From assembly GCF_001677475.2 (NCBI RefSeq), contig NZ_CP015229.1: a stretch of 64,000 bases of DNA; one strand, 5' to 3'. The stretch is from Escherichia coli. Lineage in GTDB: Bacteria > Pseudomonadota > Gammaproteobacteria > Enterobacterales > Enterobacteriaceae. The first letter of the stretch is position 1. Every line of letters begins with the position of its first letter. Of the stretch, positions 26,268-49,682 are shown one piece after another. The position numbers and the translations under genes are program-made. The notes below the pieces were generated by a model. That model saw nothing but the letters and a program-made list of their open reading frames with translations, did not search any database and was not told where the DNA came from.

Positions 26268-26270
26268 TCA

Positions 26271-28580: not shown

Positions 28581-28809
28581 GAGGCAGTAACCTTAAAAAT
28601 AGCTTTTCACGCACACCAAAAAGGATGACGATGGGAAGTGGATTAATCTCAAAATAATACTTCTAAATTAAAAAGGTTAAAAGCAAATCACAACCTTCCT
28701 GAGCTTCCGCTTTTCTCTTTCAGAGGGCTGAAGTCGTTATCTGTAACCAGAGGAGATCAGTAGCCCGTTATGCCAGCTAAAGCACTCCGGGCAGATTGCC
28801 CGGAGTGCT

Positions 28810-28990
28810 TAATATTTTAATGGATTGTTAATCTTCGCATACTCAAAGGGGCTGGTATTTTCTTTCGAGTTTGTATCCAGAAAATCCCCCCACCACTGTA
28901 GCATCAACCGACGCTATTCCAGGTGTTCTGTTTTATGGATATAAGCCGCCCTTAATGAATTACGTTCCATGTGGCTCATCTGACGTTCAG
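28810..28990 (-). pseudogene. remnant of the 3' end of a second P4-type integrase gene
   Basis: ~180 bp closely similar to the 3' end of the intact integrase gene at 31928 (encodes ...AKINNPLK-like C-terminus); same flanking hairpin CCGGGCA...TGCCCGG. Confidence 0.6.
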
Positions 28991-29208
28991 CCGCTTTATC
29001 TCGTGCTGTTTTGGTCTTAATACTTCCATGCCGCTGCGATTACCTCTTAAACCCGCCCTTACCATTTTTATGGGTACGATAAGAAAACTTTATCGGGCAC
29101 GATCGATTTTATCGATCGATTCGATCGAAAACATTCCTTTTACCCTATCTTTTGCATGGTTTTAGAATGAGCAACCCCATTTATCGTTCGGGGAAAGTGA
29201 TAGCGGAG

Positions 29209-29958: not shown

Positions 29959-30109
29959 CAAAACTGCTCCTGAAAGATAATAATTACCCATCTTCTGTAA
30001 TTAAACGAAGACTCCCTGCAGTAATTATACTGCAGGGTTGTTTGTTATCTGTTTCACAGGAGACTTCTGATTTTTATTCTCTTCACAATAATGTTGTCGA
30101 TATACTCCG

Positions 30110-31609: not shown

Positions 31610-31927
31610 TCATATATGGCAAACTGTAATACAGTTGCTTGTACTGAAAAGTATTCTGTATAAAACAGAATCCGTATTCATATCAGCACAAGGGACCACC
31701 AAATCCCGGCAGTATTCCTTACGTCAGTTATCCCGCATCACTCTGTGAGTGAGTTTTTTTATGAGGTTACTTTTTCATTGAATATAAATAATGAATAACC
31801 GCAGATTCTGATAATCCTCCTCCAGGGAACAATCAGGTAAACAGTAAATACATCAGTTAATACCATTTTGTCTTTTTAACAAAGAAAATATTCATGGAGT
31901 AAGTTCCCGGGCATTTGCCCGGGATGA

Positions 31928-33193: not shown

Positions 33194-33347
33194 AGTTCAG
33201 CCTTCTGAATGCGTTAAAGAGGGTACAAATTCTGTCGAACTGGGGTATACCCGCAATTATACCCACACAATGGGGTTGATGTGGGGGGAATCTGGTTGAG
33301 TTCGGTAGAATTGATTTGGAGGAAGAACACTTAAATCATGGTGTTCT

Positions 33348-33381
33348 GAAACGAAAAACGGACCTCCGTGGAGGTCCGTTG
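33348..33381 (-). terminator. terminator downstream of pheV
   Basis: Hairpin GGACCTCCACGGAGGTCC followed by a T-run on the minus strand. Confidence 0.6.
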
Positions 33382-33390
33382 ATATGAATT

Positions 33391-33466
33391 TGGTGCCCGG
33401 ACTCGGAATCGAACCAAGGACACGGGGATTTTCAATCCCCTGCTCTACCGACTGAGCTATCCGGGC
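33391..33466 (-). tRNA. pheV: tRNA-Phe (GAA anticodon)
   Basis: Reverse complement reads GCCCGGATAGCTCAGTCGGTAGAGCAGGGGATTGAAAATCCCCGTGTCCTTGGTTCGATTCCGAGTCCGGGCACCA. Confidence 0.95.
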
Positions 33467-33571
33467 AACGGGGCGCATTAAACCTGATTCGCCTCGTCTC
33501 GTCAATCAAATTTCTTCAATTTAGTGCAGACTGCACAATCTATCATCACTTTGCCGCTATTGCACGCATTT

Positions 33572-34300
33572 TCAGGCAAACCAGGCGGTCCAGGCGGCGG
33601 AAAGCGGCATTGCCAGAAGGAGTGCTGGAAGCATGTTGACCACCGGGAACATTTTAATGCCACAGATGCGTAATCCGGTTGCCAGCAGCAATAAACCGCC
33701 TACGGCGCTGAAGTCTGCCATCATCGACGGTGTGGTCAGCGGTAATATCAGCGCGGCAGCCCACGCCAGCGTTAACTGGATGATCAGTAATGGGATACTA
33801 ATTACCGACACCGCAATACCCAACGAGCAGGCGAAGATCATCGCCGTAAAGAAATCGAGAAATGACTTGGCGATTAAAATACTCGGATCGCCGGTCATCC
33901 CTTCGTTCATCGCCCCGAAGATCCCGGTGCCGCTGGCGCAAAACAGGACAATAATCGCGACATAATTCTGAATAAAAGATTCATGCGCTGGCTTCTTACG
34001 TGAGTGGCGAAACAGATTTTGTGCTTTGGTGACCGCGGTATTGACGCCTTTTTCCAGCAGACAAATTTCGCCGATTAATGCACCGAGTAAGGTTGCTAAC
34101 ACCATCGCAGGAAGGTTGGCGCATTTCACCACCAGTAAAATACCAATCCCCAGCGATGCCAGACCAAAAATTGATGTCATGGAGACGCGGATACGTTCCG
34201 GTAAGCGTTGGCTAAGGAGTGCACCGAGAACGCCACCCAGTAATACTGCACTTGCGTTGATAAAAGGACCGATGACCACAAGAGTTCCTGTTAGCTGCAT
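33572..34300 (-). CDS. yqgA: DUF554 family inner membrane protein
   Basis: Hydrophobic 242-codon ORF next to pheV as in the K-12 arrangement. Confidence 0.8.
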
Positions 34301-34676
34301 TATCTGATTTTCTTATTATGAACGTTTGGCACCTTCGATGGCTTGTTTGTTCGCAAAGTCCTGGCTTGCACGCTTTAGCGAAAGGTGCCATGATTGCGCG
34401 AATTTTCTCCTCTCTGTACGGAGTTTGCCCGATGCACGCCATCTCCTTACATTCTCTCGCTTATCGCCGTTTCGCGCGAAACTCTTCTCTTTTTATGCTA
34501 CTGCTTATGCGGTGAAGTTAACGCACGTTCACTGCAGGACAACAGTAAAATCAGAGCATTTCTGCTTTTACTGATGTCTGGCGGTCGGAGCTGGTGACCA
34601 GTTTGACCCATATCTCATGGGGCAGGGTTTTCCACCTTGTCCGGTATTCTTACTTCCCCGAAACGGGTTTGCGCTT

Positions 34677-36812
34677 ATGAAATCAATGAATATTGCCGCC
34701 AGTAGTGAACTGGTATCCCGACTTTCTACTCATCGCCGCGTGGTGGCGTTGGGAGATACTGATTTTACGGACGTCGCGGCAGTCGTCATTACCGCTGCGG
34801 ATAGTCGCAGTGGCATTCTTGCGTTGCTTAAGCGCACCGGTTTTCATCTACCGGTGTTTTTGTATTCCGAACATGCTGTTGAATTACCTGCGGGCGTTAC
34901 GGCGGTAATCAATGGCAACGAGCAGCAGTGGCTGGAGTTGGAATCCGCAGCCTGTCAGTATGAAGAGAATTTGCTGCCACCGTTTTATGACACGCTGACG
35001 CAGTACGTTGAGATGGGCAACAGCACTTTTGCTTGCCCTGGGCATCAACATGGTGCGTTCTTTAAAAAGCATCCTGCCGGACGCCATTTTTACGATTTCT
35101 TTGGTGAGAACGTCTTTCGCGCCGATATGTGTAATGCTGACGTAAAATTGGGCGATCTGCTTATTCATGAAGGATCGGCGAAGGATGCGCAGAAATTCGC
35201 AGCCAAAGTCTTTCATGCCGATAAAACCTATTTTGTCCTGAACGGCACATCGGCAGCGAATAAAGTGGTGACGAATGCGCTGTTAACGCGTGGCGATCTG
35301 GTGCTCTTCGACCGTAACAACCATAAGTCGAATCATCACGGCGCGCTGATTCAGGCGGGGGCGACGCCGGTCTATCTGGAAGCTTCACGTAACCCGTTTG
35401 GTTTCATTGGCGGTATTGATGCGCACTGTTTTAATGAAGAGTATCTGCGCCAGCAAATTCGCGACGTTGCGCCAGAAAAAGCCGAGCTGCCCCGCCCGTT
35501 TCGCCTGGCGATTATTCAGCTGGGAACCTATGACGGCACTGTCTATAACGCCCGCCAGGTGATCGATACCGTTGGGCATCTGTGTGATTACATTCTGTTT
35601 GATTCCGCATGGGTCGGTTACGAACAGTTTATCCCGATGATGGCGGATAGCTCGCCGCTGCTGTTAGAACTTAACGAAAACGATCCGGGGATCTTTGTGA
35701 CTCAGTCGGTGCACAAACAGCAGGCGGGATTCTCACAGACGTCGCAGATCCATAAAAAAGATAACCATATCCGCGGACAGGCGCGTTTTTGCCCGCATAA
35801 GCGGTTAAATAATGCCTTTATGCTCCATGCTTCTACCAGCCCGTTCTACCCGCTGTTTGCCGCGCTGGACGTTAACGCCAAAATTCATGAAGGGGAGAGT
35901 GGGCGTCGGCTGTGGGCTGAGTGCGTTGAGATAGGGATTGAAGCGCGCAAGGCGATTCTTGAGCACTGTAAGCTGTTCCGCCCGTTTATCCCGCCCATTG
36001 TTGATGGCAAATTGTGGCAGGATTATCCGACATCAGTGTTAGCCAGCGACCGTCGTTTTTTCAGTTTTGAGCCGGGGGCGAAGTGGCACGGCTTTGAAGG
36101 ATATGCCGCGGATCAGTATTTTGTTGATCCGTGCAAGCTGTTACTCACTACACCAGGTATCAATGCCGAAACTGGCGAATATAGCGACTTTGGCGTTCCG
36201 GCGACGATTCTGGCGCACTATCTGCGTGAGAACGGCATTGTGCCGGAGAAGTGCGATCTCAACTCCATTCTGTTCTTATTAACTCCGGCGGAAAGCCACG
36301 AGAAGCTGGCACAACTGGTGGCGATGCTGGCGCAGTTTGAACAGCATATTGAGGATGACTCGCCGCTGGCTGAGGTGTTGCCGAGCGTTTATAACAAATA
36401 TCCGGTGCGCTATCGCGACTACACCCTGCGCCAGTTGTGTCAGGAGATGCACGATCTGTATGTCAGTTTCGACGTCAAAGACCTACAAAAAGCGATGTTC
36501 CGCCAGCAGAGTTTCCCGTCAGTGGTGATGACCCCCCAGGACGCGCATAGCGCTTATATTCGCGGTGAAGTGGAGTTGGTGCGGATTCGTGATGCCGAAG
36601 GGCGAATTGCGGCAGAAGGGGCGTTGCCTTATCCACCAGGCGTGCTTTGCGTGGTACCCGGAGAAGTCTGGGGTGGGGCGGTTCAACGTTATTTCCTTGC
36701 GCTGGAAGAAGGGGTGAATTTGTTGCCGGGATTTTCGCCGGAGCTGCAAGGTGTCTATAGCGAAACCGATGCAGATGGCATGAAACGATTGTACGGTTAT
36801 GTGTTGAAGTAA
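34677..36812 (+). CDS. speC: ornithine decarboxylase (constitutive)
   Basis: Translation MKSMNIAASSELVSRLSTHRRVVALGDTDF...; fold-I PLP decarboxylase; start at internal ATG. Confidence 0.93.
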   Translation: MKSMNIAASSELVSRLSTHRRVVALGDTDFTDVAAVVITAADSRSGILALLKRTGFHLPVFLYSEHAVELPAGVTAVINGNEQQWLELESAACQYEENLLPPFYDTLTQYVEMGNSTFACPGHQHGAFFKKHPAGRHFYDFFGENVFRADMCNADVKLGDLLIHEGSAKDAQKFAAKVFHADKTYFVLNGTSAANKVVTNALLTRGDLVLFDRNNHKSNHHGALIQAGATPVYLEASRNPFGFIGGIDAHCFNEEYLRQQIRDVAPEKAELPRPFRLAIIQLGTYDGTVYNARQVIDTVGHLCDYILFDSAWVGYEQFIPMMADSSPLLLELNENDPGIFVTQSVHKQQAGFSQTSQIHKKDNHIRGQARFCPHKRLNNAFMLHASTSPFYPLFAALDVNAKIHEGESGRRLWAECVEIGIEARKAILEHCKLFRPFIPPIVDGKLWQDYPTSVLASDRRFFSFEPGAKWHGFEGYAADQYFVDPCKLLLTTPGINAETGEYSDFGVPATILAHYLRENGIVPEKCDLNSILFLLTPAESHEKLAQLVAMLAQFEQHIEDDSPLAEVLPSVYNKYPVRYRDYTLRQLCQEMHDLYVSFDVKDLQKAMFRQQSFPSVVMTPQDAHSAYIRGEVELVRIRDAEGRIAAEGALPYPPGVLCVVPGEVWGGAVQRYFLALEEGVNLLPGFSPELQGVYSETDADGMKRLYGYVLK

Positions 36813-36814
36813 GA

Positions 36815-36850
36815 AAAAAACGGGTCACCTTCTGGCGACCCGTTTTTCTT
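36815..36850. terminator. bidirectional terminator between convergent speC and nupG
   Basis: A-run, hairpin AACGGGTCACC...GGCGACCCGTT, T-run. Confidence 0.7.
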
Positions 36851-36857
36851 TGCGTAA

Positions 36858-38114
36858 TTAGTGGCTCACCGTCTGTGTGCCTGTCGGGACACGAACGTGT
36901 TTATATTTGAACATCGCCATGAACGCGAAGGCCAGAACCACGGAGTAACCAGCGAAAATCAACCATACGGTCTGCCAGTCGGTAATGCCGTTTTGGGTGT
37001 ACATCTCAACAACTTTACCGCTCACGATGCCGCCAAGGATACAGCCGAAGCCGTTAGTCATCATCAGGAACATCCCCTGCGCACTGGCGCGAATTGCCGG
37101 GCTAACTTCTTTTTCGACAAACACCGAACCAGAGATGTTGAAGAAGTCGAATGCGCAACCGTAAACGATCATCGACAGTACCAGCAGCACGGTACCGAAC
37201 GGAGTCGGGTCGCCGTAAGCAAACAGCGCAAAACGCAGGATCCACGCCACAATACTGATCATCATTACGTTCTTAATACCGTAGCGGCTTAAGAAGAACG
37301 GGATAGTCAGAATGAACAGGGTTTCAGAGATCTGCGAAATCGACATGATGATTGACGCATGCTGCACGATGAAGCTGCTGGCAAACATCGGATCTTTGTC
37401 GAAGCTGTGCAGGAAGGTGTTACCGAACATGTTGGTAATCTGCAGTTCCGCGCCCAGCAGCATTGAGAAGATGAAGAAGATTGCCATACGTTTGTTTTTA
37501 AACAGCGCGAATGCATCGAGGCCCAGCAGGGTTGTCCAGCTCTGATTCGCTTGCTGTTTAGCAACCGGAATATGCGGCAGAGTCAGGGTAAACAGAACCA
37601 GAATGGCGGAAAGCGCTGCGCCAATATACAGCTGCATGTGGCTTAATTCGAAGCCAGACAGGCTCACCACCCACATTGCCATGATAAAGCCGATGGTGCC
37701 CCAGATACGAATTGGCGGGAAGTCAGTAACGATATCCATCCCGGCATTTTGCAGGCGATAGTAAGAGATGGTGTTGATTAACCCAAGCGTTGGCATATAA
37801 GCAAACGAGTTAATCAATATCACAAGGAACATCGCCTCCGGCGTAGTGACCTCTGCCGCCATGAACAGCGTGATAGCGCCAATGGTGTGGCAAATGGCAT
37901 AGACCCATTTCGCACTTAACCATTTGTCGGCCACAATCCCCAGCAGCGCAGGCATAAAGACCGCGGCGATACCCAGTGAGCTATAAACTGCGCCGATAGA
38001 AGCACCGTCAAACTTCAGGGTAACAAACATATAGGAGCCGAGGGTCGTCAGCCAACTTCCCCACAGACAGAACTGCAGAAAAGAGAGGATTTTCAGCTGC
38101 AGCTTAAGATTCAT
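36858..38114 (-). CDS. nupG: nucleoside:H+ symporter
   Basis: Translation MNLKLQLKILSFLQFCLWGSWLTTLGSYMF...; start at internal ATG. Confidence 0.93.
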   Translation of the reverse strand: MNLKLQLKILSFLQFCLWGSWLTTLGSYMFVTLKFDGASIGAVYSSLGIAAVFMPALLGIVADKWLSAKWVYAICHTIGAITLFMAAEVTTPEAMFLVILINSFAYMPTLGLINTISYYRLQNAGMDIVTDFPPIRIWGTIGFIMAMWVVSLSGFELSHMQLYIGAALSAILVLFTLTLPHIPVAKQQANQSWTTLLGLDAFALFKNKRMAIFFIFSMLLGAELQITNMFGNTFLHSFDKDPMFASSFIVQHASIIMSISQISETLFILTIPFFLSRYGIKNVMMISIVAWILRFALFAYGDPTPFGTVLLVLSMIVYGCAFDFFNISGSVFVEKEVSPAIRASAQGMFLMMTNGFGCILGGIVSGKVVEMYTQNGITDWQTVWLIFAGYSVVLAFAFMAMFKYKHVRVPTGTQTVSH

Positions 38115-38315
38115 GTTAATTTCCTCACATCGTGATGCGGATGAGTGTTTGAAAAAGCACATTTGACCGTGCGAGATGATGCGATTCTATCAATTTCGCG
38201 GACTGGTTTTTTGTTACCTGCGGCAAATAATTGCAAACATTCCCAATTTGCAAAACGAAATTGTGATGTGGATAACATTTTTGCCCCTGAGCATCGTCAG
38301 GGGCGGTTAGTGGAA

Positions 38316-39422
<1,107 letters not shown>

Positions 39423-39459
39423 TTATGCAAGTTGCCGGAGGCGTGCTCCGGCACTGTTT

Positions 39460-39738
<279 letters not shown>

Positions 39739-39762
39739 TCATCCTCTTTATCGACTCACGCG

Positions 39763-40815
39763 CTAAACCGGCGCGCCAGTGCGTAACTGCTGTAACAAAC
39801 GCTCCACGGGAGCCGCCAGGCCAACTGACGGCGGTTGCGCTAAGTTATACCAGAGCGCATTGCCTTCATCCATGCAGCCGGTGAATGACGACACGGGAAG
39901 CCACATAGGCACAATATCTAAGTGGAAATGGCTGAAGGTATGCCGAAACGCGGTCAGTTGCGTCAGGTTATCGGCAGCAATCTGCCGTTGCGCCAGCCAT
40001 AGTCGCAAACTTTCTTCATTGGCAAACTGCGGGAAACAGTATAAACCGCCCCACAATCCACTCGGCGGGCGCTGCGCCAGCAATACCTCATCATCATGCT
40101 GTAACAGTAAAAAGTAACCCGTGCGCTCCGGTAGCGTCTGCTTTGGTTTTTTGCCCGGATAAAGCGACCAGCTATTGTTGGCGGTGGCAATACATCCGTT
40201 TTGTAGCGGACAGAGCGAACATTTCGGCTTCGAGCGCGTACAAATCATCGCGCCCAAATCCATCATCGCCTGATTAAACCGTTCCACGCCGACCGCGGGC
40301 GTCATCTGCGCGCTCAAACTCCATAGTTTATTCTCGACCTCTTTTTTCCCAGGCCAGCCGCTTACAGCATAGCAGCGCGCCAGCACCCGTTTGACGTTAC
40401 CGTCGAGAATCGGAAAGTGCTTACCCAGAGAAAGCGAGAGAATCGCGCCTGCGGTGGAACGCCCGACGCCCGGTAACGCCGCGACTTCTTCAAAGGTTTC
40501 CGGGAATTTACCGCCGTGTAAGGTCGCCACTTGTTGTGCCGCTTTATGCAGATTGCGCGCGCGGGCGTAATAGCCAAGCCCGGTCCACAAGTGGAGAACT
40601 TCGTCGAGCGGCGCATTGGCGAGATCGGTCACCGTTGGGAAGCGCGCCATAAAGCGTTCAAAATAGGGGATAACGGTCGCAACCTGTGTTTGTTGCAACA
40701 TCACTTCTGAGAGCCATACTTTGTAGGGCGTCTTGTCAATTTGCCAGGGCAGCGTTTTCCGCCCGTATTTATCGTACCAGTCCAGAACCTGGGCTGAAAA
40801 TTGCGACGCTTGCAT
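39763..40815 (-). CDS. mutY: adenine DNA glycosylase
   Basis: Translation [25 protein letters not shown]...; HhH-GPD and CxxxxxxCxxC cluster; start at internal ATG. Confidence 0.9.
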
Positions 40816-40975
40816 GGTCACCGAATTCACTGTTGTTGGGGGCAAGATTGCAGCACAGCGACGGCAGGGTGTAAACCGGAACTTTCCGCAGCCACGGCCT
40901 TATCATGCTTGCATCCGGCAACTAACTTTGGATAATGCCCGTTTTCAGAACACTTTCACAAGCGACTAAATCTTT

Positions 40976-41695
40976 ATGAAAAACGACGTCATTTCACCGG
41001 AATTTGATGAAAACGGCCGCCCACTGCGCCGTATCCGTAGTTTTGTGCGCCGCCAGGGGCGACTGACCAAAGGCCAGGAACATGCGCTGGAAAACTACTG
41101 GCCGGTGATGGGCGTTGAGTTCAGCGAAGATATGCTGGATTTCCCCGCGCTTTTTGGCCGTGAAGCGCCGGTGACGCTTGAGATTGGTTTTGGCATGGGG
41201 GCGTCGCTGGTGGCAATGGCTAAAGATCGCCCCGAGCAGGACTTCCTCGGCATTGAAGTGCATTCACCGGGCGTTGGTGCGTGCCTGGCTTCTGCGCATG
41301 AAGAGGGCTTAAGCAACCTGCGCGTGATGTGTCACGATGCGGTTGAAGTGCTGCATAAAATGATTCCTGACAATTCATTGCGCATGGTGCAGCTCTTTTT
41401 CCCTGACCCGTGGCACAAAGCGCGCCATAATAAACGCCGTATCGTTCAGGTGCCGTTTGCCGAACTGGTAAAAAGCAAACTGCAGCTGGGGGGCGTATTC
41501 CATATGGCGACCGACTGGGAACCTTATGCGGAACATATGCTTGAAGTGATGTCTTCTATTGACGGTTATAAAAACCTGTCAGAGAGCAATGATTACGTAC
41601 CGCGTCCGGCATCACGTCCGGTGACGAAATTTGAACAACGTGGTCATCGTCTTGGTCACGGAGTATGGGACTTAATGTTCGAGAGGGTGAAATAA
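40976..41695 (+). CDS. trmB: tRNA (guanine-N7)-methyltransferase
   Basis: 239 aa, [31 protein letters not shown]... Confidence 0.93.
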
Positions 41696-42021
41696 TGGCA
41701 AAGAACCGTAGCCGTCGTCTGCGTAAAAAAATGCACATCGACGAATTCCAGGAATTAGGATTTTCGGTGGCATGGCGATTCCCGGAAGGTACATCGGAAG
41801 AACAGATTGATAAAACCGTTGATGATTTTATTAACGAGGTTATCGAACCGAACAAACTGGCCTTTGACGGCAGCGGCTATCTGGCCTGGGAAGGTCTGAT
41901 CTGTATGCAGGAAATCGGCAAATGCACCGAAGAACATCAGGCGATTGTGCGTAAGTGGCTGGAAGAGCGCAAACTGGATGAGGTACGCACCAGCGAACTT
42001 TTCGACGTTTGGTGGGACTAA
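41695..42021 (+). CDS. yggL: DUF469 protein
   Basis: Translation [23 protein letters not shown]...; start abutting the trmB stop. Confidence 0.85.
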   Translation: MAKNRSRRLRKKMHIDEFQELGFSVAWRFPEGTSEEQIDKTVDDFINEVIEPNKLAFDGSGYLAWEGLICMQEIGKCTEEHQAIVRKWLEERKLDEVRTSELFDVWWD

Positions 42022-42052
42022 GAAAGCATACGGGCGATGACAAATGCAAAAC

Positions 42053-42133
42053 TGCCTGATGCGCTACGCTTATCAGGCCTACAAAGATGCACGATCGAGT
42101 AGGCGGGATAAGGCGTTTACGCCGCATCCGGCA
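42053..42133. repeat. REP elements
   Basis: GCCTGATGCGCTACGCTTATCAGGCCTAC and GCGTTTACGCCGCATCCGGCA palindromic units. Confidence 0.6.
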
Positions 42134-42204
42134 TGGAAAACGCGTACTTTGTTATCAATCTGGGGCCAGCAAATGCTGGCCTGATTTGTTCTTGAGGGAA
42201 GACT

Positions 42205-42924
42205 ATGATGCGCAAAATGCTGCTGGCGGCAGCACTTTCAGTGACGGCAATGACCGCTCACGCCGACTACCAGTGCAGCGTCACGCCGCGTGACGATGTG
42301 ATTGTCAGCCCGCAAACCGTGCAGGTGAAGGGCGAAAACGGCAATCTGGTGATCACGCCAGACGGCAACGTGATGTATAACGGTAAGCAATATTCCCTGA
42401 ATGCCGCCCAGCGCGAGCAGGCGAAGGATTATCAGGCTGAACTACGTAGCACCCTGCCGTGGATTGATGAAGGCGCGAAAAGCCGCGTCGAGAAAGCCCG
42501 TATTGCGCTGGATAAAATTATCGTTCAGGAGATGGGCGAAAGCAGCAAAATGCGCAGCCGTCTGACCAAACTTGATGCGCAGCTGAAAGAGCAGATGAAC
42601 CGCATTATCGAAACGCGCAGCGATGGCCTGACGTTTCACTATAAAGCCATTGATCAGGTTCGCGCCGAAGGCCAGCAATTAGTGAATCAGGCAATGGGCG
42701 GAATTTTACAGGACAGCATTAATGAGATGGGCGCGAAAGCGGTGCTGAAAAGCGGCGGCAACCCATTACAGAATGTGCTGGGAAGCCTGGGGGGGCTGCA
42801 ATCCTCAATCCAAACCGAATGGAAAAAGCAGGAAAAAGATTTCCAGCAGTTTGGCAAAGATGTTTGTAGCCGCGTTGTGACTCTGGAAGATAGCCGCAAA
42901 GCCCTGGTCGGGAATTTAAAATAA
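42205..42924 (+). CDS. yggN: DUF2884 periplasmic protein
   Basis: 239 aa with signal peptide MMRKMLLAAALSVTAMTAHA; synteny. Confidence 0.85.
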   Translation: MMRKMLLAAALSVTAMTAHADYQCSVTPRDDVIVSPQTVQVKGENGNLVITPDGNVMYNGKQYSLNAAQREQAKDYQAELRSTLPWIDEGAKSRVEKARIALDKIIVQEMGESSKMRSRLTKLDAQLKEQMNRIIETRSDGLTFHYKAIDQVRAEGQQLVNQAMGGILQDSINEMGAKAVLKSGGNPLQNVLGSLGGLQSSIQTEWKKQEKDFQQFGKDVCSRVVTLEDSRKALVGNLK

Positions 42925-43099
42925 TCCTCTATTTTAAGACGGCATAATACTTTTTTATGCCGTTTAATTCTTCGTTTTGTTACCTGCCTCTAACTTTGTA
43001 GATCTCCAAAATATATTCACGTTGTAAATTGTTTAACGTCAAATTTCCCATACAAAGCTAAGGGATAATGCGTAGCGTTCACGTAACTGGAGGAATGAA

Positions 43100-44146
43100 A
43101 TGGAGTTTTTCAAAAAGACGGCACTTGCCGCACTGGTTATGGGTTTTAGTGGTGCAGCATTGGCATTACCCAATATCACCATTTTAGCAACCGGCGGGAC
43201 CATTGCCGGTGGTGGTGACTCCGCAACCAAATCTAACTACACAGCGGGTAAAGTTGGCGTAGAAAATCTGGTTAATGCGGTGCCGCAACTGAAGGACATT
43301 GCGAATGTTAAAGGCGAGCAGGTTGTGAATATCGGCTCCCAGGACATGAACGATAATGTCTGGCTGACACTGGCGAAAAAAATTAACACCGACTGCGATA
43401 AAACCGACGGCTTCGTCATTACCCACGGTACCGACACGATGGAAGAAACCGCTTACTTCCTCGACCTGACGGTGAAATGTGACAAACCGGTGGTGATGGT
43501 CGGCGCAATGCGCCCGTCCACGTCTATGAGCGCAGACGGTCCATTCAACCTGTATAACGCGGTAGTGACCGCAGCTGATAAAGCCTCTGCTAATCGTGGC
43601 GTGCTGGTAGTGATGAACGACACCGTACTGGACGGTCGCGACGTCACCAAAACCAACACCACCGACGTAGCGACCTTTAAGTCTGTTAACTACGGTCCTC
43701 TGGGTTACATTCACAACGGTAAGATTGACTACCAACGTACCCCGGCACGTAAGCACACCAGCGACACGCCGTTCGATGTCTCTAAGCTGAATGAACTGCC
43801 GAAAGTCGGCATTGTTTATAACTACGCTAACGCATCCGATCTTCCGGCTAAAGCACTGGTAGATGCGGGCTATGATGGCATCGTTAGCGCTGGCGTGGGT
43901 AACGGCAACCTGTATAAAACCGTGTTCGATACTCTGGCGACCGCCGCGAAAAACGGCACTGCGGTAGTGCGTTCTTCCCGCGTACCGACGGGCGCTACCA
44001 CTCAGGATGCCGAAGTGGATGATGCGAAATACGGCTTCGTCGCCTCTGGCACGCTGAATCCGCAAAAAGCGCGCGTTCTGCTGCAACTGGCTCTGACGCA
44101 AACCAAAGATCCGCAGCAGATCCAGCAGATCTTCAATCAGTACTAA
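43100..44146 (+). CDS. ansB: periplasmic L-asparaginase II
   Basis: 348 aa, MEFFKKTALAALVMGFSGAALALPNITILATGGTIAGGG... Confidence 0.95.
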   Translation: MEFFKKTALAALVMGFSGAALALPNITILATGGTIAGGGDSATKSNYTAGKVGVENLVNAVPQLKDIANVKGEQVVNIGSQDMNDNVWLTLAKKINTDCDKTDGFVITHGTDTMEETAYFLDLTVKCDKPVVMVGAMRPSTSMSADGPFNLYNAVVTAADKASANRGVLVVMNDTVLDGRDVTKTNTTDVATFKSVNYGPLGYIHNGKIDYQRTPARKHTSDTPFDVSKLNELPKVGIVYNYANASDLPAKALVDAGYDGIVSAGVGNGNLYKTVFDTLATAAKNGTAVVRSSRVPTGATTQDAEVDDAKYGFVASGTLNPQKARVLLQLALTQTKDPQQIQQIFNQY

Positions 44147-44262
44147 TCACCTCGCCCCGGTAACGTGCCGGGGCTTTTTCACTTCAGACTTACGTCCATT
44201 GCCAATTTTCATTACCCTAGTGATAATCACATGAATAAATTATTCCGCGCGAGGGTTTTCGG

Positions 44263-45270
44263 GTGAAAAAGCAATGGATTGTTGGCACGGCGCTGCTTAT
44301 GTTGATGACTGGTAATGTCTGGGCAGATGGCGAACCACCAACTGAAAATATCTTAAAAGATCAATTCAAAAAGCAGTATCACGGCATTCTCAAGCTTGAT
44401 GCTATCACCTTAAAAAATCTTGATGCTAAGGGTAATCAGGCCACCTGGTCAGCGGAAGGCGATGTCTCTTCCAATGACGATCTCTATACCTGGGTCGGTC
44501 AGTTGGCAGATTACGAGCTGCTCGAACAGACCTGGACGAAAGATAAACCGGTAAAATTCTCGGCGATGTTAACCAGTAAAGGAACGCCCGCGTCTGGCTG
44601 GTCGGTGAACTTTTACTCTTTTCAGGCGGCAGCCAGCGATCGTGGGCGGGTGGTCGACGATATCAAAACGAATAATAAATATCTGATCGTGAATAGCGAA
44701 GATTTCAATTATCGCTTTAGTCAGCTTGAATCAGCGTTGAATACCCAGAAGAACTCGATTCCTGCGCTGGAAAAGGAAGTGAAAGCGCTTGATAAGCAAA
44801 TGGTGGCGGCGCAGAAAGCAGCGGATGCATATTGGGGAAAAGATGCAAACGGCAAGCAAATGACCCGCGAAGACGCCTTTAAAAAAATTCATCAACAGCG
44901 TGATGAGTTTAATAAACAGAACGATAGCGAGGCGTTTGCGGTTAAATATGACAAAGAGATTTATCAACCGGCGATTGCGGCATGTCATAAACAGAGTGAA
45001 GAGTGTTATGAAGTGCCGATTCAGCAGAAACGAGATTTCGATATCAACGAACAACGGCGACAGACTTTTCTGCAATCACAAAAAATTAGCCGTAAATTGC
45101 AGGATGACTGGGTAACGCTAGAAAAAAGGCAATATCCGTTAACGATGAAAGTTTCGGAAATAAACAGTAAAAAAGTCGCGATTTTGATGAAAATTGACGA
45201 TATCAATCAGGCTAATGAACGCTGGAAAAAAGATACCGAACAACTGCGGCGCAATGGGGTGATTAAGTAA
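44263..45270 (+). CDS. yggM: DUF1202 family protein
   Basis: 335 aa with signal peptide; synteny next to ansB. Confidence 0.85.
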   Translation: MKKQWIVGTALLMLMTGNVWADGEPPTENILKDQFKKQYHGILKLDAITLKNLDAKGNQATWSAEGDVSSNDDLYTWVGQLADYELLEQTWTKDKPVKFSAMLTSKGTPASGWSVNFYSFQAAASDRGRVVDDIKTNNKYLIVNSEDFNYRFSQLESALNTQKNSIPALEKEVKALDKQMVAAQKAADAYWGKDANGKQMTREDAFKKIHQQRDEFNKQNDSEAFAVKYDKEIYQPAIAACHKQSEECYEVPIQQKRDFDINEQRRQTFLQSQKISRKLQDDWVTLEKRQYPLTMKVSEINSKKVAILMKIDDINQANERWKKDTEQLRRNGVIK

Positions 45271-45285
45271 CTCATGTTAAGTGCC

Positions 45286-45326
45286 TTTGCCGGATAATAT
45301 AAAAGTTATCCGGCAAATTATTTTTT
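45286..45326. terminator. terminator hairpin after yggM
   Basis: GCCGGATAA...TTATCCGGC followed by a T-run. Confidence 0.6.
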
Positions 45327-46046
45327 ACATTAGCCCTAGTAGCTGTGGAATGAACAAGGATATTTGCGGAATGTAAGTGATCATCATCAACGCTACTAGC
45401 AATGCAGCATAAAATGGCAGCAATGGTTTGATTAAATGTTGAATCTTCACACCCGAGATAGAACAACCAACAAATAGCGCACTACCCACCGGCGGTGTTA
45501 ACAGCCCAATACAAAGGTTGGCCACCATCATAATACCGAAATGTACAGGGTCCATTCTCAGCTCTTGTGCAATCGGCAAGAAGATCGGTGTAAAGATTAG
45601 TACAGCCGGTGTCATGTCCATAAAGATGCCGACAATTAATAAGACGATATTAATCAGCAGCAATATGATCAGTGGGTTATCAGAAATCCCCATCAACGCG
45701 TCGCTGATCATATAAGGAATATCAGCATTGGTCATTGCCCAGGACATGCCCACGGAAAAACCGATCAACAGTAATACAATCGAAGTGGTAACAACCGATT
45801 CCAGAATCAGTTTGGGTAAGTCGCGCCATTTTACTTCCCGGTAAATCAGCACCGAGAGAATAAATGTGTAGACAACGGCAATTGCTGACGCTTCAGTTGC
45901 GGTAAAAATGCCGCCCAGAATGCCGCCCATCACAATGAACACCAGAAGCAAACTTGGTAGGGCATCCAGAAACGCTTTACAGGCCTGAGCAAAGGTTGCT
46001 CTTTCTGAAAGTGGGTAACCACGGCGTTTAGCAATAATGGCGCAGA
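45325..46046 (-). pseudogene. TRAP large permease (DctM family), C-terminal fragment
   Basis: Hydrophobic frame running from the IS66 junction at 46046; in-frame continuation (...VVCA|IIAKRRGYPLSERATF...) of the fragment at 13921-14507. Confidence 0.75.
46040..46046. repeat. 7-bp direct repeat (GCGCAGA, reverse complement of TCTGCGC), right copy of the dctM target duplication
   Basis: Matches 14501-14507 in reverse complement; both abut IS66 ends. Confidence 0.6.
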
Positions 46047-46076
46047 GTAAGCGTCAACGGAGCACCGTATTGACGC

Positions 46077-47669
46077 TTATTTATTGGTGAGAACCACGTT
46101 CCATGGCAGGAGTTCGTCAACACGGTTGGAGGGCCATTCCGGCAGTACGCTCAGAATATGGCGCAGATACGCTTCCGGATCGATACCGTTCAGACGGCAG
46201 GTGCCGATCAGCCCGTATAGCAGTGCACCACGCTCGCCACCGTGATCGCTACCGAAGAACACGTAATTTTTCTTTCCAAGACAGACTGCACGAAGCGCTC
46301 TTTCCGCTGTGTTATTGTCCGTCTCCGCCAGTCCGTCATCACTGTAATAACAGAGGGCGTCCCACTGATTCAGTACATAGCTGAACGCTTCGCCCAGTCT
46401 GGATTTTTTCGACAGCGTGCCATTCTTCTCCACCATCCATTCATGCAGCGACGTCAGTAACGCTTTGCTTCGCTGCTGTCTGACTGCAAGACGCTCTGAC
46501 TCTGGTAATCCCCGTATTTCATCCTCGATGGCGTACAGTTCACTGATTCGCTTCAGGGCTTCTTCTGCCGTCGCACTTTTGCTGCTGATGTATACATCGT
46601 GGATTTTTCTCCGGGCATGGGCCCAGCACGCAACTTCTGTCAGCGCACCACCTTCACGTTCTGCACTGAACAGCCTGTCATAACCTGTGAACGCATCCGC
46701 CTGCAGGATACCCCGGAAGGGGCGGAGGTGTTGCTCCGGGTGTTTCCCCTGCCGGTTCGGTGAGTACGCGAACCAGACCGCCGGAGGAGATGACGAACCC
46801 GCATTGCGATCATCCCGGACATACGTCCAGATGCGCCCTGTTTTCGTCTTTTTCAAGCCCGGTGCCAGTACCTTTACCGGTGTGTCGTCAGTGTGAAGCT
46901 TGCGGGTATTCATCACATAACGGTACAGGGCATCATTCAGCGGCATCATTAACTGGCAGCACGCGTCAACCCAGTTGGAGAGTAATGCACGGCTCAGTTC
47001 GACACCCTGTCGGGCAAAGATTTCACTCTGACGATACAGTGGCAGGTGTTCGCAGTATTTTCCCGTTAACACGCGGGCAAGTAATCCGGGGCCCGCGATA
47101 CCACGCTCTATCGGGCGGGACGGCGCCGGTGCTTCAATGATGCAGTCACATTTTGTACAGGCTTTTTTTACCCGTTCTGTGCGGATCACTTTCAGGGCGC
47201 TGCTCACCAGTTCCAGCTGCTCAGTACTGACTTCCCCCAGATAATCCAGCTCGCCGCCACATTCCGGGCAACAACTTTCTTCAGACTCCAGACGGTGTAT
47301 TTCACGGGGAAGGTGTGCCGGTAACGGACGACGATGGCGCGACTGTCGCAACTGGCGGGGAACCTGTGGATCGTCTTCCCGCCCACTGTAACGATCGCTG
47401 TCCTGTTCGCGTTGTTTCAGCAGGGCCTCAGCCTGTTCAACTTCACGACGCAGTTTTTCAGAACGGGTACCGAACAGCATCCGGCGCAGTTTTTCTATCT
47501 GAGCCCGCAGATGTTCTATTTCCCGTTCATCTTCTTCGATCTTTTCTTCGGCACGTGCCAGTGCAGAGCGCAGGAAGGCCTCCGTCTCTTCAACCAGACT
47601 CAGTTGCTGGTCTTTCTGACGGAGCTGGCTTTCCAGTTCTGCAATGCGAATGAGGTATTTCTGACTCAT
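46077..47669 (-). CDS. IS66 family transposase (TnpC)
   Basis: 530-aa translation identical to that of copy 1. Confidence 0.9.
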   Translation of the reverse strand: MSQKYLIRIAELESQLRQKDQQLSLVEETEAFLRSALARAEEKIEEDEREIEHLRAQIEKLRRMLFGTRSEKLRREVEQAEALLKQREQDSDRYSGREDDPQVPRQLRQSRHRRPLPAHLPREIHRLESEESCCPECGGELDYLGEVSTEQLELVSSALKVIRTERVKKACTKCDCIIEAPAPSRPIERGIAGPGLLARVLTGKYCEHLPLYRQSEIFARQGVELSRALLSNWVDACCQLMMPLNDALYRYVMNTRKLHTDDTPVKVLAPGLKKTKTGRIWTYVRDDRNAGSSSPPAVWFAYSPNRQGKHPEQHLRPFRGILQADAFTGYDRLFSAEREGGALTEVACWAHARRKIHDVYISSKSATAEEALKRISELYAIEDEIRGLPESERLAVRQQRSKALLTSLHEWMVEKNGTLSKKSRLGEAFSYVLNQWDALCYYSDDGLAETDNNTAERALRAVCLGKKNYVFFGSDHGGERGALLYGLIGTCRLNGIDPEAYLRHILSVLPEWPSNRVDELLPWNVVLTNK

Positions 47670-47699
47670 GGCCGTTTTTATAATGCGGCCAGGCGTTTT

Positions 47700-48050
47700 T
47701 TACAACATTGTCAGGGCGTTAAGGCGGGATGTTTTTGGCTGACGCCAGTCCAGCTTATCGAGGAGCATTGCCAGTTGCGAGCGGGTAATGGATACCTTAC
47801 CGTCACGCACCGCAGGCCAGATAAACTGGCCTTCCTCCAGGCGTTTGGTGAACAGGCACAGACCATCAGCATCAGCCCAAAGAATTTTAACGGTGTCACC
47901 CCGTCGGCCACGGAAGATAAACAGGTGACCGGAGAAGGGATTAACATTTAACACATGCTGTACCTGTTCACCCAGCCCGTTGAAAGACTTACGCATATCG
48001 GTTATCCCGGCAACGAGCCAGATACGGGTACCGGATGGGAGTGAGATCAT
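47700..48050 (-). CDS. IS66 family accessory protein (orfB/TnpB)
   Basis: Identical translation to copy 1. Confidence 0.85.
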   Translation of the reverse strand: MISLPSGTRIWLVAGITDMRKSFNGLGEQVQHVLNVNPFSGHLFIFRGRRGDTVKILWADADGLCLFTKRLEEGQFIWPAVRDGKVSITRSQLAMLLDKLDWRQPKTSRLNALTML

Positions 48051-48466
48051 CTTCCCCTCCCGGTCAGTTCACGAATCAATACAGTGAGCAGCTCTGGTGA
48101 AGGATTTTCCAGCGTCATGTTACCGTGACGGAACTCCACCTTGCAGGAGCTGGCACTGACAGTAGTCTGAGTGGATAAGGGCGGAGTAAGAGCAGCCATC
48201 GGTTCTTTCGGCTCATCAGAGGTTATCTCTACAGGTAATAATTCAAGGCCTGCATCAGAAGTGGTTGTCACCGGAAGACGCCGTGATATACGCCCTTCGT
48301 TTTGCCAGAGTCTGAGCCATTTGAAAATAACATTATCATTGACGCCATTTTCTCGTGCAATCTGAGCCACACAAGCACCGGGTTGTGATGCCAGTTCAAC
48401 CATACGAAGTTTGAATTCATTCGAATACTTTTTACGAGGTTCTTTTCGCCAGTCCTGTAATTCCAT
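48047..48466 (-). CDS. IS66 family accessory protein (orfA/TnpA)
   Basis: Identical translation to copy 1. Confidence 0.85.
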   Translation of the reverse strand: MELQDWRKEPRKKYSNEFKLRMVELASQPGACVAQIARENGVNDNVIFKWLRLWQNEGRISRRLPVTTTSDAGLELLPVEITSDEPKEPMAALTPPLSTQTTVSASSCKVEFRHGNMTLENPSPELLTVLIRELTGRGR

Positions 48467-48551
48467 ACTTAGATGTCCGTCTGTGTCAGATGGGCGTCTA
48501 AGTTACCAATTCTTGTCTAATGGCTACATACGGCGGTCGGTTTACGCTTAC

Positions 48552-48559
48552 CGCTGGCC
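48552..48559. repeat. 8-bp target-site duplication (CGCTGGCC), second copy
   Basis: Reverse complement of GGCCAGCG at 17013-17020. Confidence 0.8.
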
Positions 48560-48880
48560 TACACGCAGCGGCTTAAGGAAGCCGGATTACTGGCATCAAC
48601 AGGGAGTACTGGTGACTCGTATGACAACGCGATGGCGGAGAGCATCAATGGTCTTTACAAAGCGGAGGTAATACACCGTAAGAGCTGGAAAAACCGGACA
48701 GAAGTGGAACTGGCCACACTAACGTGGGTGGACTGGTATAACAATCGACGATTGCTGGAAAGGCTGGGCCATATTCCTCCGGCAGAAGCAGAAAAAGCTT
48801 ATTATGCTTCCATCGGAAATAATGATCTGGCAGCCTGAGTTCACAGATAAAATACTCTCCAGGAAACCCGGGGCGGTTCA
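48552..48880 (+). mobile_element. IS629 (IS3 family), right 329 bp with the 3' end of orfB and the right terminal repeat
   Basis: Encodes YTQRLKEAGLLASTGSTGDSYDNAMAESINGLYKAEV...; terminal repeat ...CCCGGGGCGGTTCA at 48880. Confidence 0.8.
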
Positions 48881-49682
48881 TTCCGCCGGTGATGGCTGTG
48901 TCAGAAACTGCCATCCCGGAATGGCCACGCAGACCGCCAGCAATGCCGTACAGACACCTGTAACAAACGTTTTCAAAAACGTGAGCGGGGATTTTTGAAG
49001 GAAGAGTGTGGGCTCTGTTTTTGTTTCAGAAACAACATACACCAGACGGGAGTGCGGCAGGGTCTGATGTTCCTGCACATCCGGAGCTTCAAGCCTGAGT
49101 GCCTGCGCCAGTAGCGTTACCGGAGACGATACTTCCCCCTGCACAGGCTGGTTCTCCAGGCGGGTGATATATCCCTTCACCATGGCTTCCGGTAAAGCCA
49201 CTTTACTGCTCTGTTTAAGTTCGTGCCAAGCCTGCGTATTTTCATGGAAGGAGATCACTCAGTGTCTTCAGGAATGTTTCGGTCTGATACAGCAGGGGCA
49301 GGTTGCCACGGTTATCCGGAGGCATGGCCCGGAGCGTTTTTTGCAGACGGTTGAACAGACCGGTAATAATTTCCAGCCGGGAGTGTGTATTCAGCGGCCA
49401 CATCACTGACCAGTGATGCCGGGTCAGCGCAGCAATCAGAGCCAGCCCTTCATTCAGACCACTTAACCCTGTTGTATGCATCCGGGCAATGGTGTACCAG
49501 GATGCCGTCTGTAATTCCACACCATTGTGTTCATACAGACGCAGGCAGAGCGTTTCCACGTAACGCCAGTCCACATCAGGGCGTGCCGGGTGGGTCAGTT
49601 TGCTGATTTCATCGCGCAGGGCAGCATAATCCGGTAATGACCGGGGGTCACCACCGGTTTTCAGTTTCACTTCAGAAGTCAT
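48881..49682 (-). pseudogene. N-terminal part of a TssA/ImpA-like gene (frameshifted, truncated by IS629)
   Basis: ORF 49242-49682 (…GGDPRSLPDYAALRDEISKL…WRYVETLCLRLYEH…, ImpA-N-like) and overlapping out-of-frame ORF 48878-49258 ending inside the IS629 terminus. Confidence 0.45.

What the first reader, a model, noticed from the sequence alone, without database searches (positions are those of the whole stretch)
48881..49682. TssA/ImpA-like gene frameshifted and split by IS629; its 3' part lies at 18002-18550
On the minus strand, ORF 49242-49682 has an ImpA-N-like sequence (…DPRSLPDYAALRDEISKL…WRYVETLCLRLYEH…). It overlaps the out-of-frame ORF 48878-49258, whose stop codon is the last 3 nt of the IS629 terminus. 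On the other IS629 flank the frame is open from 18002 and continues in phase (…PAE | EQQLQALL…). This looks like an orphan type-VI-secretion-related gene decayed by a frameshift and then by IS insertion.
Basis: partly seen in the sequence, partly recalled or inferred. Interest (0 to 1): 0.4.

Follow-up and report, generated by a model that had tools for sequence, protein, structure and literature searches.

The report
IS-broken remnant of T6SS tagA
This is a dead copy of tagA, an accessory gene of the type VI secretion system, killed first by an old frameshift that about 6% of complete E. coli genomes share and later cut in two by nested insertion sequences and a 29-kb inversion; it is an ordinary pseudogene.

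Summary
Window 49682-48881 (minus strand) and 18002-18550 (plus strand) are two halves of one gene. Uninterrupted alleles in other E. coli run straight across the junction and are exactly 3 bp shorter, which is the IS629 target duplication.

The gene is not a core tssA. [quoted passage not shown] The repaired protein is 88% identical to the TagA ORF next to the sci-1 T6SS of EAEC 042.

The frameshift is a net +16-nt lesion. It is present in 322 of 5426 complete E. coli genomes, so it is not a sequencing error and it predates the IS events.

The later events were:
- An intact 1310-bp IS629 inserted 10 codons after the hydrophobic segment.
- A 2505-bp IS66-family element inserted into IS629, with an 8-bp duplication.
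- The segment 17013-46046 was inverted between two identical, inverted IS66 copies. The second copy lies in a TRAP permease gene.

No T6SS core gene is in the window. Only the module that lies downstream of tssE in EAEC 042 is present, so the gene is an orphan here.

The finding is ordinary and of low interest. The family and the frameshifted allele are already in the databases.

The parts
49242..49682 (-). tagA pseudogene, ORF1: 146 aa ending at a premature TGA. The ImpA_N domain covers residues 8-109 (window 49661-49356).
   Evidence: PF06812, 67.9 bits, E 1.1e-18. This exact protein is in public collections as ANO90818.1 / WP_404998285.1.
49240..49255 (-). Frameshift lesion. MAFFT places a 16-nt insertion (ATCTCCTTCCATGAAA) within a roughly 33-nt divergent patch that replaces about 17 nt of the intact alleles. 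The net change is +16 nt.
   Evidence: The patch is present in 322 of 5426 complete E. coli genomes.
48881..49258 (-). tagA pseudogene, middle part, read in the shifted frame (linker and hydrophobic segment). Its stop codon is supplied by the IS629 end at 48878-48880.
48911..48979 (-). Predicted membrane segment FLKTFVTGVCTALLAVCVAIPGW. The Kyte-Doolittle 19-residue mean is 2.08.
48881..48883 (-). Left copy of the IS629 3-bp target duplication. It reads GAA where the empty site reads GAG, so it carries one mismatch.
48552..48880 (+). IS629/IS1203-type IS3-family element, 329-bp piece. It holds the inverted repeat TGAACCGCCCCGGGTTTCC and the 3' end of orfB, and it includes one copy of the IS66 8-bp duplication GGCCAGCG at 48552-48559.
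46047..48551 (-). IS66-family element, copy B (2505 bp; tnpA 139 aa, tnpB 116 aa, tnpC 530 aa; ends GTAAGCG...CGCTTAC).
17013..46046 (.). Segment inverted between the two IS66 copies (29,034 bp). It carries the tagA 3' half, ibrA/ibrB/perC, a Shango system, the integrase, the position collinear with tRNA-Phe (pheV) of EAEC 042 (no tRNA scan was run on the window), and backbone genes from speC to yggM.
14508..17012 (+). IS66-family element, copy A. It is 100% identical to copy B and inverted relative to it. Its outer flank lies in a TRAP transporter large permease gene, with a 7-bp flanking repeat TCTGCGC at 14501-14507 and 46040-46046.
17013..18001 (-). IS629/IS1203-type element, 989-bp piece (orfA 108 aa, 5' part of orfB, inverted repeat ...GGGGCGGTTCA). 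It includes the second copy of GGCCAGCG at 17013-17020. Together with 48552-48880, minus 8 bp, it gives exactly 1310 bp with orfA and orfB open.
18002..18550 (+). tagA pseudogene, 3' part. The VasL domain lies at 18116-18532 and the TAA stop at 18548-18550. The right copy of the 3-bp duplication (GAG) is at 18002-18004.
   Evidence: (PF12486, 102.6 bits, E 2.4e-29)

Best explanation
The locus is a non-functional, orphan copy of tagA, the type VI secretion accessory gene whose product has an ImpA_N domain, a membrane segment and a VasL domain. In EAEC, TagA is reported to bind TssA at the distal end of the sheath, stop polymerisation and hold the extended sheath.

The copy lies in a genomic island collinear with the pheV island of EAEC 042. 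That island carries the module found downstream of tssE in the EAEC 042 sci-1 island: a ydcA-like gene, a GIY-YIG nuclease, a NERD/UvrD exonuclease, a small ORF, tagA, ibrA, ibrB and perC. It carries none of the T6SS core genes.

The gene decayed in steps.
1. **Shown:** an old net +16-nt lesion after codon 142 separated the ImpA_N part (146-aa ORF) from the rest. This allele circulates in about 6% of complete E. coli genomes.
2. **Shown:** in this lineage an intact 1310-bp IS629 inserted 10 codons after the membrane segment, antisense to the gene, at a GAG target.
3. **Shown:** a 2505-bp IS66-family element inserted into IS629 orfB, with the 8-bp duplication GGCCAGCG.
4. **Structure shown, mechanism inferred:** the 29-kb segment between this IS66 and a second, identical, inverted IS66 copy in a TRAP permease gene was inverted. 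The cause was either homologous recombination between two copies or intramolecular replicative transposition. Both mechanisms give the same final structure. The inversion put the two gene halves 31 kb apart on opposite strands.

**Inferred:** no full-length TagA can be made. At most a 146-aa ImpA_N fragment could be translated.
For: - **One gene.** The joined halves match single loci at 99.2-99.4% identity over 100% of their length, and those loci are 3 bp shorter. A near-identical uninterrupted allele, L011, is 99.8-99.9% identical on both sides and overlaps the site by 2 nt.
- **Domains.** ImpA_N scores 67.9 bits and VasL 102.6 bits, both above the Pfam cut-offs. A hydrophobic 23-mer lies between them. 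The TagA definition (ImpA_N, transmembrane region, VasL PF12486) comes from PMC6745524. TagA function comes from PMC6450956 and PMC6730261.
- **Orthology.** The repaired protein is 88% identical (392/446) to the 455-aa ORF at the end of the EAEC 042 sci-1 island. It is 84% identical to P0021, the last gene of a T6SS cluster after tssA, tssF, tssG, tssJ, vgrG and tssE.
- **Frameshift.** Intact alleles (TUM12357, 463 aa; 042 TagA, 455 aa) read through where the window, SLK172 and the 042 pheV allele carry the +16-nt patch. The patch is in 322 of 5426 genomes.
- **IS events.** The inverted repeat is 2505 nt at 100% identity. The 8-bp and 7-bp flanking repeats are each split between the two IS66 copies, and IS629 reconstitutes to 1310 bp with orfA and orfB open. 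The window is collinear with the 042 pheV region except that 18002-45270 is flipped relative to both flanks. The joined TRAP-gene flanks match 1461 genomes in one ungapped piece.
- **Lineage.** No complete RefSeq E. coli has either IS629 junction. A contig of GCA_018682865.1 is 100% identical over 7240 bp, through the junction and into IS66.
- **Orphan status.** tblastn with 21 sci-1 proteins from TssB to TssE finds nothing in the window. Homology to the 042 island starts 158 nt after tssE.
Against: - The IS629 target duplication is imperfect (GAA against GAG), so a point mutation or an atypical event has to be assumed.
- The second IS66 copy has a 7-bp flanking repeat rather than 8 bp.
- The inversion rests on a single assembly across two identical 2.5-kb repeats, and I could not check it with reads.
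- In uninterrupted frameshift alleles both ORFs remain otherwise open, so a residual function for the split form cannot be excluded.
- dN/dS of the window allele against intact alleles is only mildly raised: 0.20-0.28 against 0.07-0.09 in the N-terminal part, based on 6 against 2 non-synonymous changes. That is too few changes to show relaxed selection.
- Whether the genome has a T6SS-1 elsewhere is unknown.
Confidence: 0.93

Rival explanations
1. The gene is a core tssA (baseplate or cap protein) rather than an accessory tagA.
For: It has an ImpA_N domain. The best NCBIfam hits are the two TssA equivalog models. The only PDB sequence hits are TssA chains 6hs5 and 6rju.
Against: The TssA models score 81 and 43 bits against cut-offs of 230 and 161, and they cover only the ImpA_N region. 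The C-terminus is VasL (PF12486), not VasJ/TssA-CTD. The real TssA of the same clusters is a separate 532-537-aa gene with ImpA_N and T6SS_VasJ. The PDB hits are weak (E 6.7e-5 and 0.008) and confined to residues 11-122.
Confidence: 0.02
2. The frameshift near 49250 is a sequencing or assembly error, and the gene was intact until IS629 inserted.
For: None beyond the general possibility.
Against: The same +16-nt patch is present in 322 of 5426 complete genomes, including EAEC 042 and SLK172. The independent assembly GCA_018682865.1 is 100% identical across it. The lesion is a 16-nt indel with flanking substitutions, not a homopolymer slip.
Confidence: 0.01
3. The frameshifted allele is a functional split gene. 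The 146-aa ImpA_N protein, still intact here, would act on its own, for example by binding TssA of a T6SS-1 encoded elsewhere. On this view only the second polypeptide was lost to IS629.
For: Both ORFs stay open in uninterrupted frameshift alleles. The allele is common. ORF1 is untouched in the window. The literature reports that the TagA and TssA families interact and that V. cholerae TagA restrains sheath assembly.
Against: Frameshift alleles are 99% or more identical to one another, so there has been too little time for further decay to be informative. The window allele has about three times more non-synonymous changes in the N-terminal part than intact alleles have among themselves. No T6SS gene is in the window. 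Other islands show many independent lesions of the same gene: a deletion, stop codons, truncations and a tssK fusion. That pattern fits neutral decay.
Confidence: 0.04
4. The 29-kb inversion is an assembly artefact or one of two co-existing isomers. In the cell the two halves would then sit head to tail, separated only by IS629::IS66. This concerns arrangement only and does not change the verdict that the gene is a pseudogene.
For: The break points are two 2505-bp repeats at 100% identity, which is the classic situation for mis-joins or flip-flop recombination. The short-read contig L013 stops 108 bp into IS66, so no independent evidence for the orientation exists.
Against: The window is a single contiguous sequence. 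Both sets of flanking repeats are arranged as a real inversion predicts.
Confidence: 0.12

Closest known systems
TagA of enteroaggregative E. coli 042 / 17-2 (sci-1 T6SS; locus tag EC042_4550 from my own recollection plus gene counting)
   Same: The repaired protein is 88% identical over 446 aligned residues. The architecture is the same (ImpA_N, hydrophobic segment, VasL). The immediate neighbours are the same: a ydcA-like gene, a GIY-YIG nuclease, a NERD/UvrD exonuclease and a small ORF upstream, and ibrA, ibrB and perC downstream.
   Different: The window copy is frameshifted, split by IS629::IS66 and inverted. It lies in an island collinear with the pheV island of EAEC 042, not a pheU island, and has no tssB-tssE genes upstream. 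Its C-terminal ~15 residues differ and it has a 2-codon in-frame deletion.
Frameshifted tagA allele of the EAEC 042 pheV island and of SLK172 (RefSeq WP_001403216.1 ImpA_N fragment and WP_306308238.1 VasL fragment)
   Same: The DNA is 99% or more identical. The +16-nt frameshift, the island and the neighbours are the same.
   Different: Those alleles lack the IS629/IS66 insertions and the inversion. ORF1 differs by one residue (G126 here, D there).
Vibrio cholerae TagA (formerly VasL), Class B TssA-like protein
   Same: [quoted passage not shown]
   Different: I did not compare the sequences directly. Its reported role (limiting sheath assembly) differs in detail from that of EAEC TagA.
TssA (EAEC TssA, EC042_4540; PDB 6rju)
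   Same: It shares the N-terminal ImpA_N domain.
   Different: TssA has a VasJ/TssA C-terminal oligomerisation domain and no membrane segment. The TssA family models are not met.

Membership tests
TagA (T6SS accessory protein with ImpA domain; Class B TssA-like) | N-terminal ImpA_N domain (PF06812) | tested here: met
   67.9 bits against a cut-off of 26.9; residues 8-109 of ORF1
TagA (T6SS accessory protein with ImpA domain; Class B TssA-like) | Hydrophobic or transmembrane region after the ImpA_N domain | tested here: met
   FLKTFVTGVCTALLAVCVAIPGW; Kyte-Doolittle 19-residue mean 2.08. This is a hydropathy calculation only, not a dedicated topology predictor.
TagA (T6SS accessory protein with ImpA domain; Class B TssA-like) | C-terminal VasL domain (PF12486) | tested here: met
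   102.6 bits against a cut-off of 27.3; profile positions 2-141 of 147; encoded at 18116-18532
TagA (T6SS accessory protein with ImpA domain; Class B TssA-like) | Encoded with a T6SS gene cluster | tested here: not met
   None of the 21 sci-1 proteins from TssB to TssE has a tblastn hit in the 64-kb window. The feature is met for the orthologues P0021 and 042 TagA. The window gene therefore counts as an orphan remnant of the family.
TagA (T6SS accessory protein with ImpA domain; Class B TssA-like) | Single intact reading frame that gives a full-length protein | tested here: not met
   A +16-nt frameshift, the IS629::IS66 insertion and the inversion. It is a pseudogene of the family.
TagA (T6SS accessory protein with ImpA domain; Class B TssA-like) | Binds TssA and stops or holds the extended sheath | not testable with these tools
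   The function is known only from the literature on EAEC TagA.
TssA (T6SS core component) | Meets the NCBIfam TssA equivalog models TIGR03362 / TIGR03363 | tested here: not met
   81.2 bits against a cut-off of 230.1, and 43.4 against 160.85. The matches cover only the ImpA_N region.
TssA (T6SS core component) | C-terminal VasJ/TssA oligomerisation domain (PF16989) | tested here: not met
   The Pfam scan of the C-terminal 308 residues returns only VasL. The TssA genes of related clusters do carry PF16989.
IS629/IS1203 (IS3 family) | About 1310 bp, terminal inverted repeats TGAACCGCCCC..., orfA and orfB, 3-bp target duplication (the defining features are from my own knowledge of the element) | tested here: met
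   The two pieces give 1310 bp after removal of the 8-bp IS66 duplication. Both inverted repeats are present. orfA is 108 aa and orfB is open. The ends match elements annotated as the IS1203 family at up to 99%. The 3-bp duplication is present but imperfect, GAA against GAG.
IS66 family | tnpA-tnpB-tnpC organisation, GTAAGCG terminal repeats, 8-bp target duplication | tested here: met
   ORFs of 139, 116 and 530 aa. Their Pfam families were inferred from a homologous element in L004 with ORFs of the same sizes. The ends are GTAAGCG...CGCTTAC. The copy in IS629 has the 8-bp duplication GGCCAGCG. The other copy has only a 7-bp repeat.

The most novel reading that the evidence does not exclude
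The widespread frameshifted allele may not be dead. Its 146-aa ImpA_N-only product, which is still intact in this window, could be kept in T6SS-less islands as a free TssA-binding module. It would modulate, and perhaps dampen, a T6SS-1 encoded elsewhere in the genome or acquired later.
Probability: 0.04. Interest if true: 0.35.

Novelty: already known. Interest (0 to 1): 0.12.

Why it matters
It matters little biologically. The locus is a textbook case of stepwise gene decay: a frameshift, then IS629, then IS66 nested inside IS629, then an IS-bounded inversion across the region collinear with the pheV tRNA locus of EAEC 042.

It has three practical uses:
- The IS629::IS66 junction in tagA is absent from all 5426 complete RefSeq E. 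coli genomes searched. It could therefore serve as a lineage marker.
- The inversion break points should be checked with long reads before they are used in synteny or typing work.
- The case shows that automatic annotation mislabels this gene family. Even the experimentally studied, intact EAEC 042 TagA is annotated as three pseudogene fragments, one of them called 'POTRA domain-containing protein'. Counts of T6SS accessory genes taken from RefSeq annotation will be wrong as a result.

Tried and rejected
- **Junction searches.** 300-nt queries across both IS629 junctions against all complete RefSeq E. coli gave no record with 80% or more coverage. The source genome or its close kin are therefore not in that collection. 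I ran no further search on identifying the strain.
- **Exact-sequence look-up.** The two IS-truncated ORF2 variants and the 169-aa 3' ORF are not on record. ORF1 is on record, and it led to the matching assembly GCA_018682865.1.
- **Primary TagA paper.** I tried to read Santin et al. 2018 by DOI and through three text searches. It is not held. TagA function is therefore cited from secondary papers, and the locus tag EC042_4550 rests on my own recollection plus gene counting.
- **dN/dS as a test of relaxed selection.** The direction is as expected, but the counts are too small to conclude anything (6 against 2 non-synonymous changes).
- **Programmed or phase-variable frameshift.** I considered and rejected this. 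There is no homopolymer or slippery run, and the lesion is a 16-nt indel in a substituted patch.
- **IS629 flanks as products of recombination between two IS629 copies.** The imperfect duplication raised this possibility. I rejected it because the flanks are contiguous in the empty-site alleles.
- **Structure prediction.** I did not run it. Sequence evidence already settles the family.

Full report
**Observation.** On the minus strand, ORF 49242-49682 (146 aa) overlaps an out-of-frame ORF at 48878-49258 (126 aa). The second ORF ends in TGA, and those three bases are the outermost bases of an IS629-type inverted repeat (TGAACCGCCCCGGGTTTCC...). At the other location, the IS629 repeat ends at 18001 (...GGGGCGGTTCA). 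An open frame runs from 18002 to a TAA at 18548-18550. Joining 49682-48881 (minus) to 18002-18550 (plus) keeps the second frame open across the junction, reading ...SPAE|EQQLRALL....

**The two flanks are one gene.** The joined 1354 nt match single loci in other E. coli over 100% of their length at 99.2-99.4% identity, and those loci are 1351 bp long. In the alignment the only length difference at the junction is one extra triplet. The empty site reads GGCG-GAG-CAGC. The window has GAA next to one IS629 end and GAG next to the other. Two metagenome or SRA contigs that are 99.8-99.9% identical to the window on both sides are also uninterrupted. The 3-bp duplication is what I expect for IS629 from my own knowledge. 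Its single mismatch is unexplained and is probably a later point mutation.

**What the gene is.**
- The N-terminal ORF scores 67.9 bits on Pfam ImpA_N. The C-terminal 308 residues score 102.6 bits on VasL (PF12486). Both are far above the cut-offs.
- A strongly hydrophobic 23-residue segment lies between the two domains.
- The NCBIfam TssA equivalog models are hit only over the ImpA_N region and well below their cut-offs (81 against 230 bits; 43 against 161 bits). PDB sequence hits are weak and limited to the ImpA_N part of TssA chains.
- In EAEC, TagA is membrane-associated and binds TssA. It is needed to stop sheath polymerisation and hold the sheath at the opposite membrane. It is accessory rather than essential (PMC6450956 and PMC6730261).
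- The repaired window protein is 88% identical (392/446) to the 455-aa ORF at the end of the EAEC 042 sci-1 island. By gene count from tssB (EC042_4524, my recollection) that ORF is EC042_4550, the studied TagA.
- It is 84% identical to P0021, a 456-aa protein encoded directly after tssA, tssF, tssG, tssJ, vgrG and tssE in other E. coli.
- A database search returned 1433 relatives. The best 120 are mostly 440-465-aa proteins with both domains, from E. coli and Salmonella.

**The frameshift.**
- Intact alleles read straight through: TUM12357 (463 aa), 042 TagA (455 aa), and the 5' part of RM11911.
- The window, SLK172 and the 042 pheV-island copy carry a divergent patch with a net +16 nt after codon 142. 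It creates the TGA at 49242-49244 and shifts the rest of the gene into the +1 frame.
- A 100-nt probe across the patch is covered at 80% or more in 322 of 5426 complete genomes.
- An independent assembly, GCA_018682865.1, is 100% identical to the window over 7240 bp that include the patch.
- The frameshift is therefore real, old and widely inherited. It is not a read error.
- RefSeq already lists the two resulting fragments as WP_001403216.1 and WP_306308238.1.

**The insertion sequences and the inversion.**
- The window contains one pair of long repeats: 14508-17012 and 46047-48551, 2505 nt, inverted and 100% identical. Both have GTAAGCG...CGCTTAC ends and IS66-type tnpA/tnpB/tnpC ORFs.
- The IS629 pieces next to them (48552-48880 and 17013-18001) each begin with GGCCAGCG. 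Removing one copy gives exactly 1310 bp with both terminal repeats, an orfA of 108 aa and an open orfB. An intact IS629 was therefore hit by an IS66-family element with an 8-bp duplication.
- The outer flanks of the two IS66 copies carry TCTGCGC in the arrangement expected for a second target. Joined, with 7 bp removed, they match a TRAP transporter large permease gene in 1461 genomes as one ungapped 993-nt piece.
- Against the EAEC 042 pheV region, window 18002-45270 is collinear in one direction. Both 48882-51953 and 5567-12073 are collinear in the opposite direction. Segment 17013-46046 is therefore inverted.
- Recombination between two pre-existing inverted IS66 copies and intramolecular replicative transposition of one copy both predict this exact end state. 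I cannot tell them apart.
- The orientation rests on a single assembly through 2.5-kb perfect repeats, so it needs long-read confirmation.

**Order of events.** The frameshift occurs in hundreds of genomes that lack the IS. Neither IS629 junction is found in any complete RefSeq E. coli. The junction and the start of the nested IS66 are present in GCA_018682865.1 and about a dozen similar assemblies.

**Context.**
- tblastn with the 042 sci-1 proteins finds no T6SS core gene in the window. It does find the whole module downstream of tssE: a ydcA-like gene, a GIY-YIG nuclease, a NERD/UvrD exonuclease, a small ORF, tagA, ibrA, ibrB, perC and two hypothetical genes.
- DNA homology to the 042 island begins 158 nt after the tssE stop.
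- Upstream in the window lie an EAL-domain gene and an F4/K88-like fimbrial operon.
- Other islands show other stages of decay of the same region: a tssE pseudogene with tagA carrying a 186-bp deletion and stop codons (RM11911), a tssK::VasL fusion after tssB and tssC (P0098), and tagA truncated at position 807 and followed by an AAA-protein cassette (O157:H7, 2011C-3911).
- The window copy is thus one of many remnants of a T6SS-1-associated island module.

**Selection.** Nei-Gojobori dN/dS of the window allele against three intact alleles is 0.20-0.28 in the ImpA_N part. Among the intact alleles it is 0.07-0.09. The difference rests on 6 against 2 non-synonymous changes. In the rest of the gene the ranges overlap. 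This is compatible with relaxed constraint but does not prove it. A residual role for the 146-aa ImpA_N fragment is therefore not excluded, and I give it about 4%.

**Verdict.** Nothing here departs from known biology. The family, its function, the frameshifted allele and both IS types are already described. Only this lineage's particular IS insertion and inversion are new, and they are ordinary. Interest is low.

Noticed in passing
L020:34071-35438 (EAEC 042, NC_017626.1 4884070-4885437) and L002:8001-9392 (TUM12357): RefSeq/PGAP annotates intact 455-aa and 463-aa ImpA_N+VasL (TagA) ORFs as three 'incomplete' pseudogene pieces. One piece is a spurious 'POTRA domain-containing protein'. The 042 ORF is the experimentally studied TagA. 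The POTRA label seems to come from a chimeric reference protein in islands where a tagA fragment (gene positions 675-807) abuts another gene.
   Followed up: partly
window 22756-28580 (-): A complete Shango anti-phage system lies inside the inverted segment: SngA at 26271-28580 (332 bits), SngB at 24951-26267 (620 bits) and SngC at 22756-24954 (923 bits).
   Followed up: partly
window 50076-53303 (-): Two defence-type genes lie directly upstream of tagA. One is a PD-Lambda-1-like GIY-YIG/T5orf172 protein (52059-53303, 294 bits). The other is a NERD+UvrD protein that matches PADLOC candidate C3a187 (50076-51863, 475 bits). The same pair separates tssE from tagA in EAEC 042 but is absent in other T6SS-1 clusters (L004).
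   Followed up: partly
window 49737-50010 (-): The small ORF just upstream of tagA is also frameshifted relative to its 101-aa homologue in EAEC 042. It gives two tblastn pieces in different frames.
   Followed up: no
window 14501-14507 and 46040-46046: The second IS66 copy splits a TRAP transporter large permease gene. Its flanking direct repeat is 7 bp (TCTGCGC), not the 8 bp seen at the copy inside IS629. This TRAP region is absent from EAEC 042 between yggM and hemW.
   Followed up: partly
window 48881-48883 and 18002-18004: The IS629 target duplication is imperfect: GAA against GAG, where the empty site reads GAG. The cause is unexplained and is probably a later G-to-A change.
   Followed up: partly
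gene positions 801-811 (window about 48875-48885 and 18002-18010); L003, L021, L022: Three independent lesions in other alleles fall within about 10 bp of the IS629 site. RM11911 has a 186-bp deletion between GCAGCAACT repeats. O157:H7 and 2011C-3911 islands lose homology after position 807. This may be coincidence or a local hotspot at the GAGCAGCAAC motif.
   Followed up: no
window about 54400-64000: An F4/K88-like (fae) fimbrial operon lies here. Its best match in any complete RefSeq E. coli is only 94% identical over 72% of the queried stretch (window 51900-64000).
   Followed up: no
L008:7922-11326: In another E. coli, tssB and tssC are followed by an in-frame fusion of the TssK N-terminus to the VasL part of tagA (P0098, 441 aa). 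This is a large internal deletion of the T6SS-1 cluster, and an OLD-family nuclease follows it.
   Followed up: no
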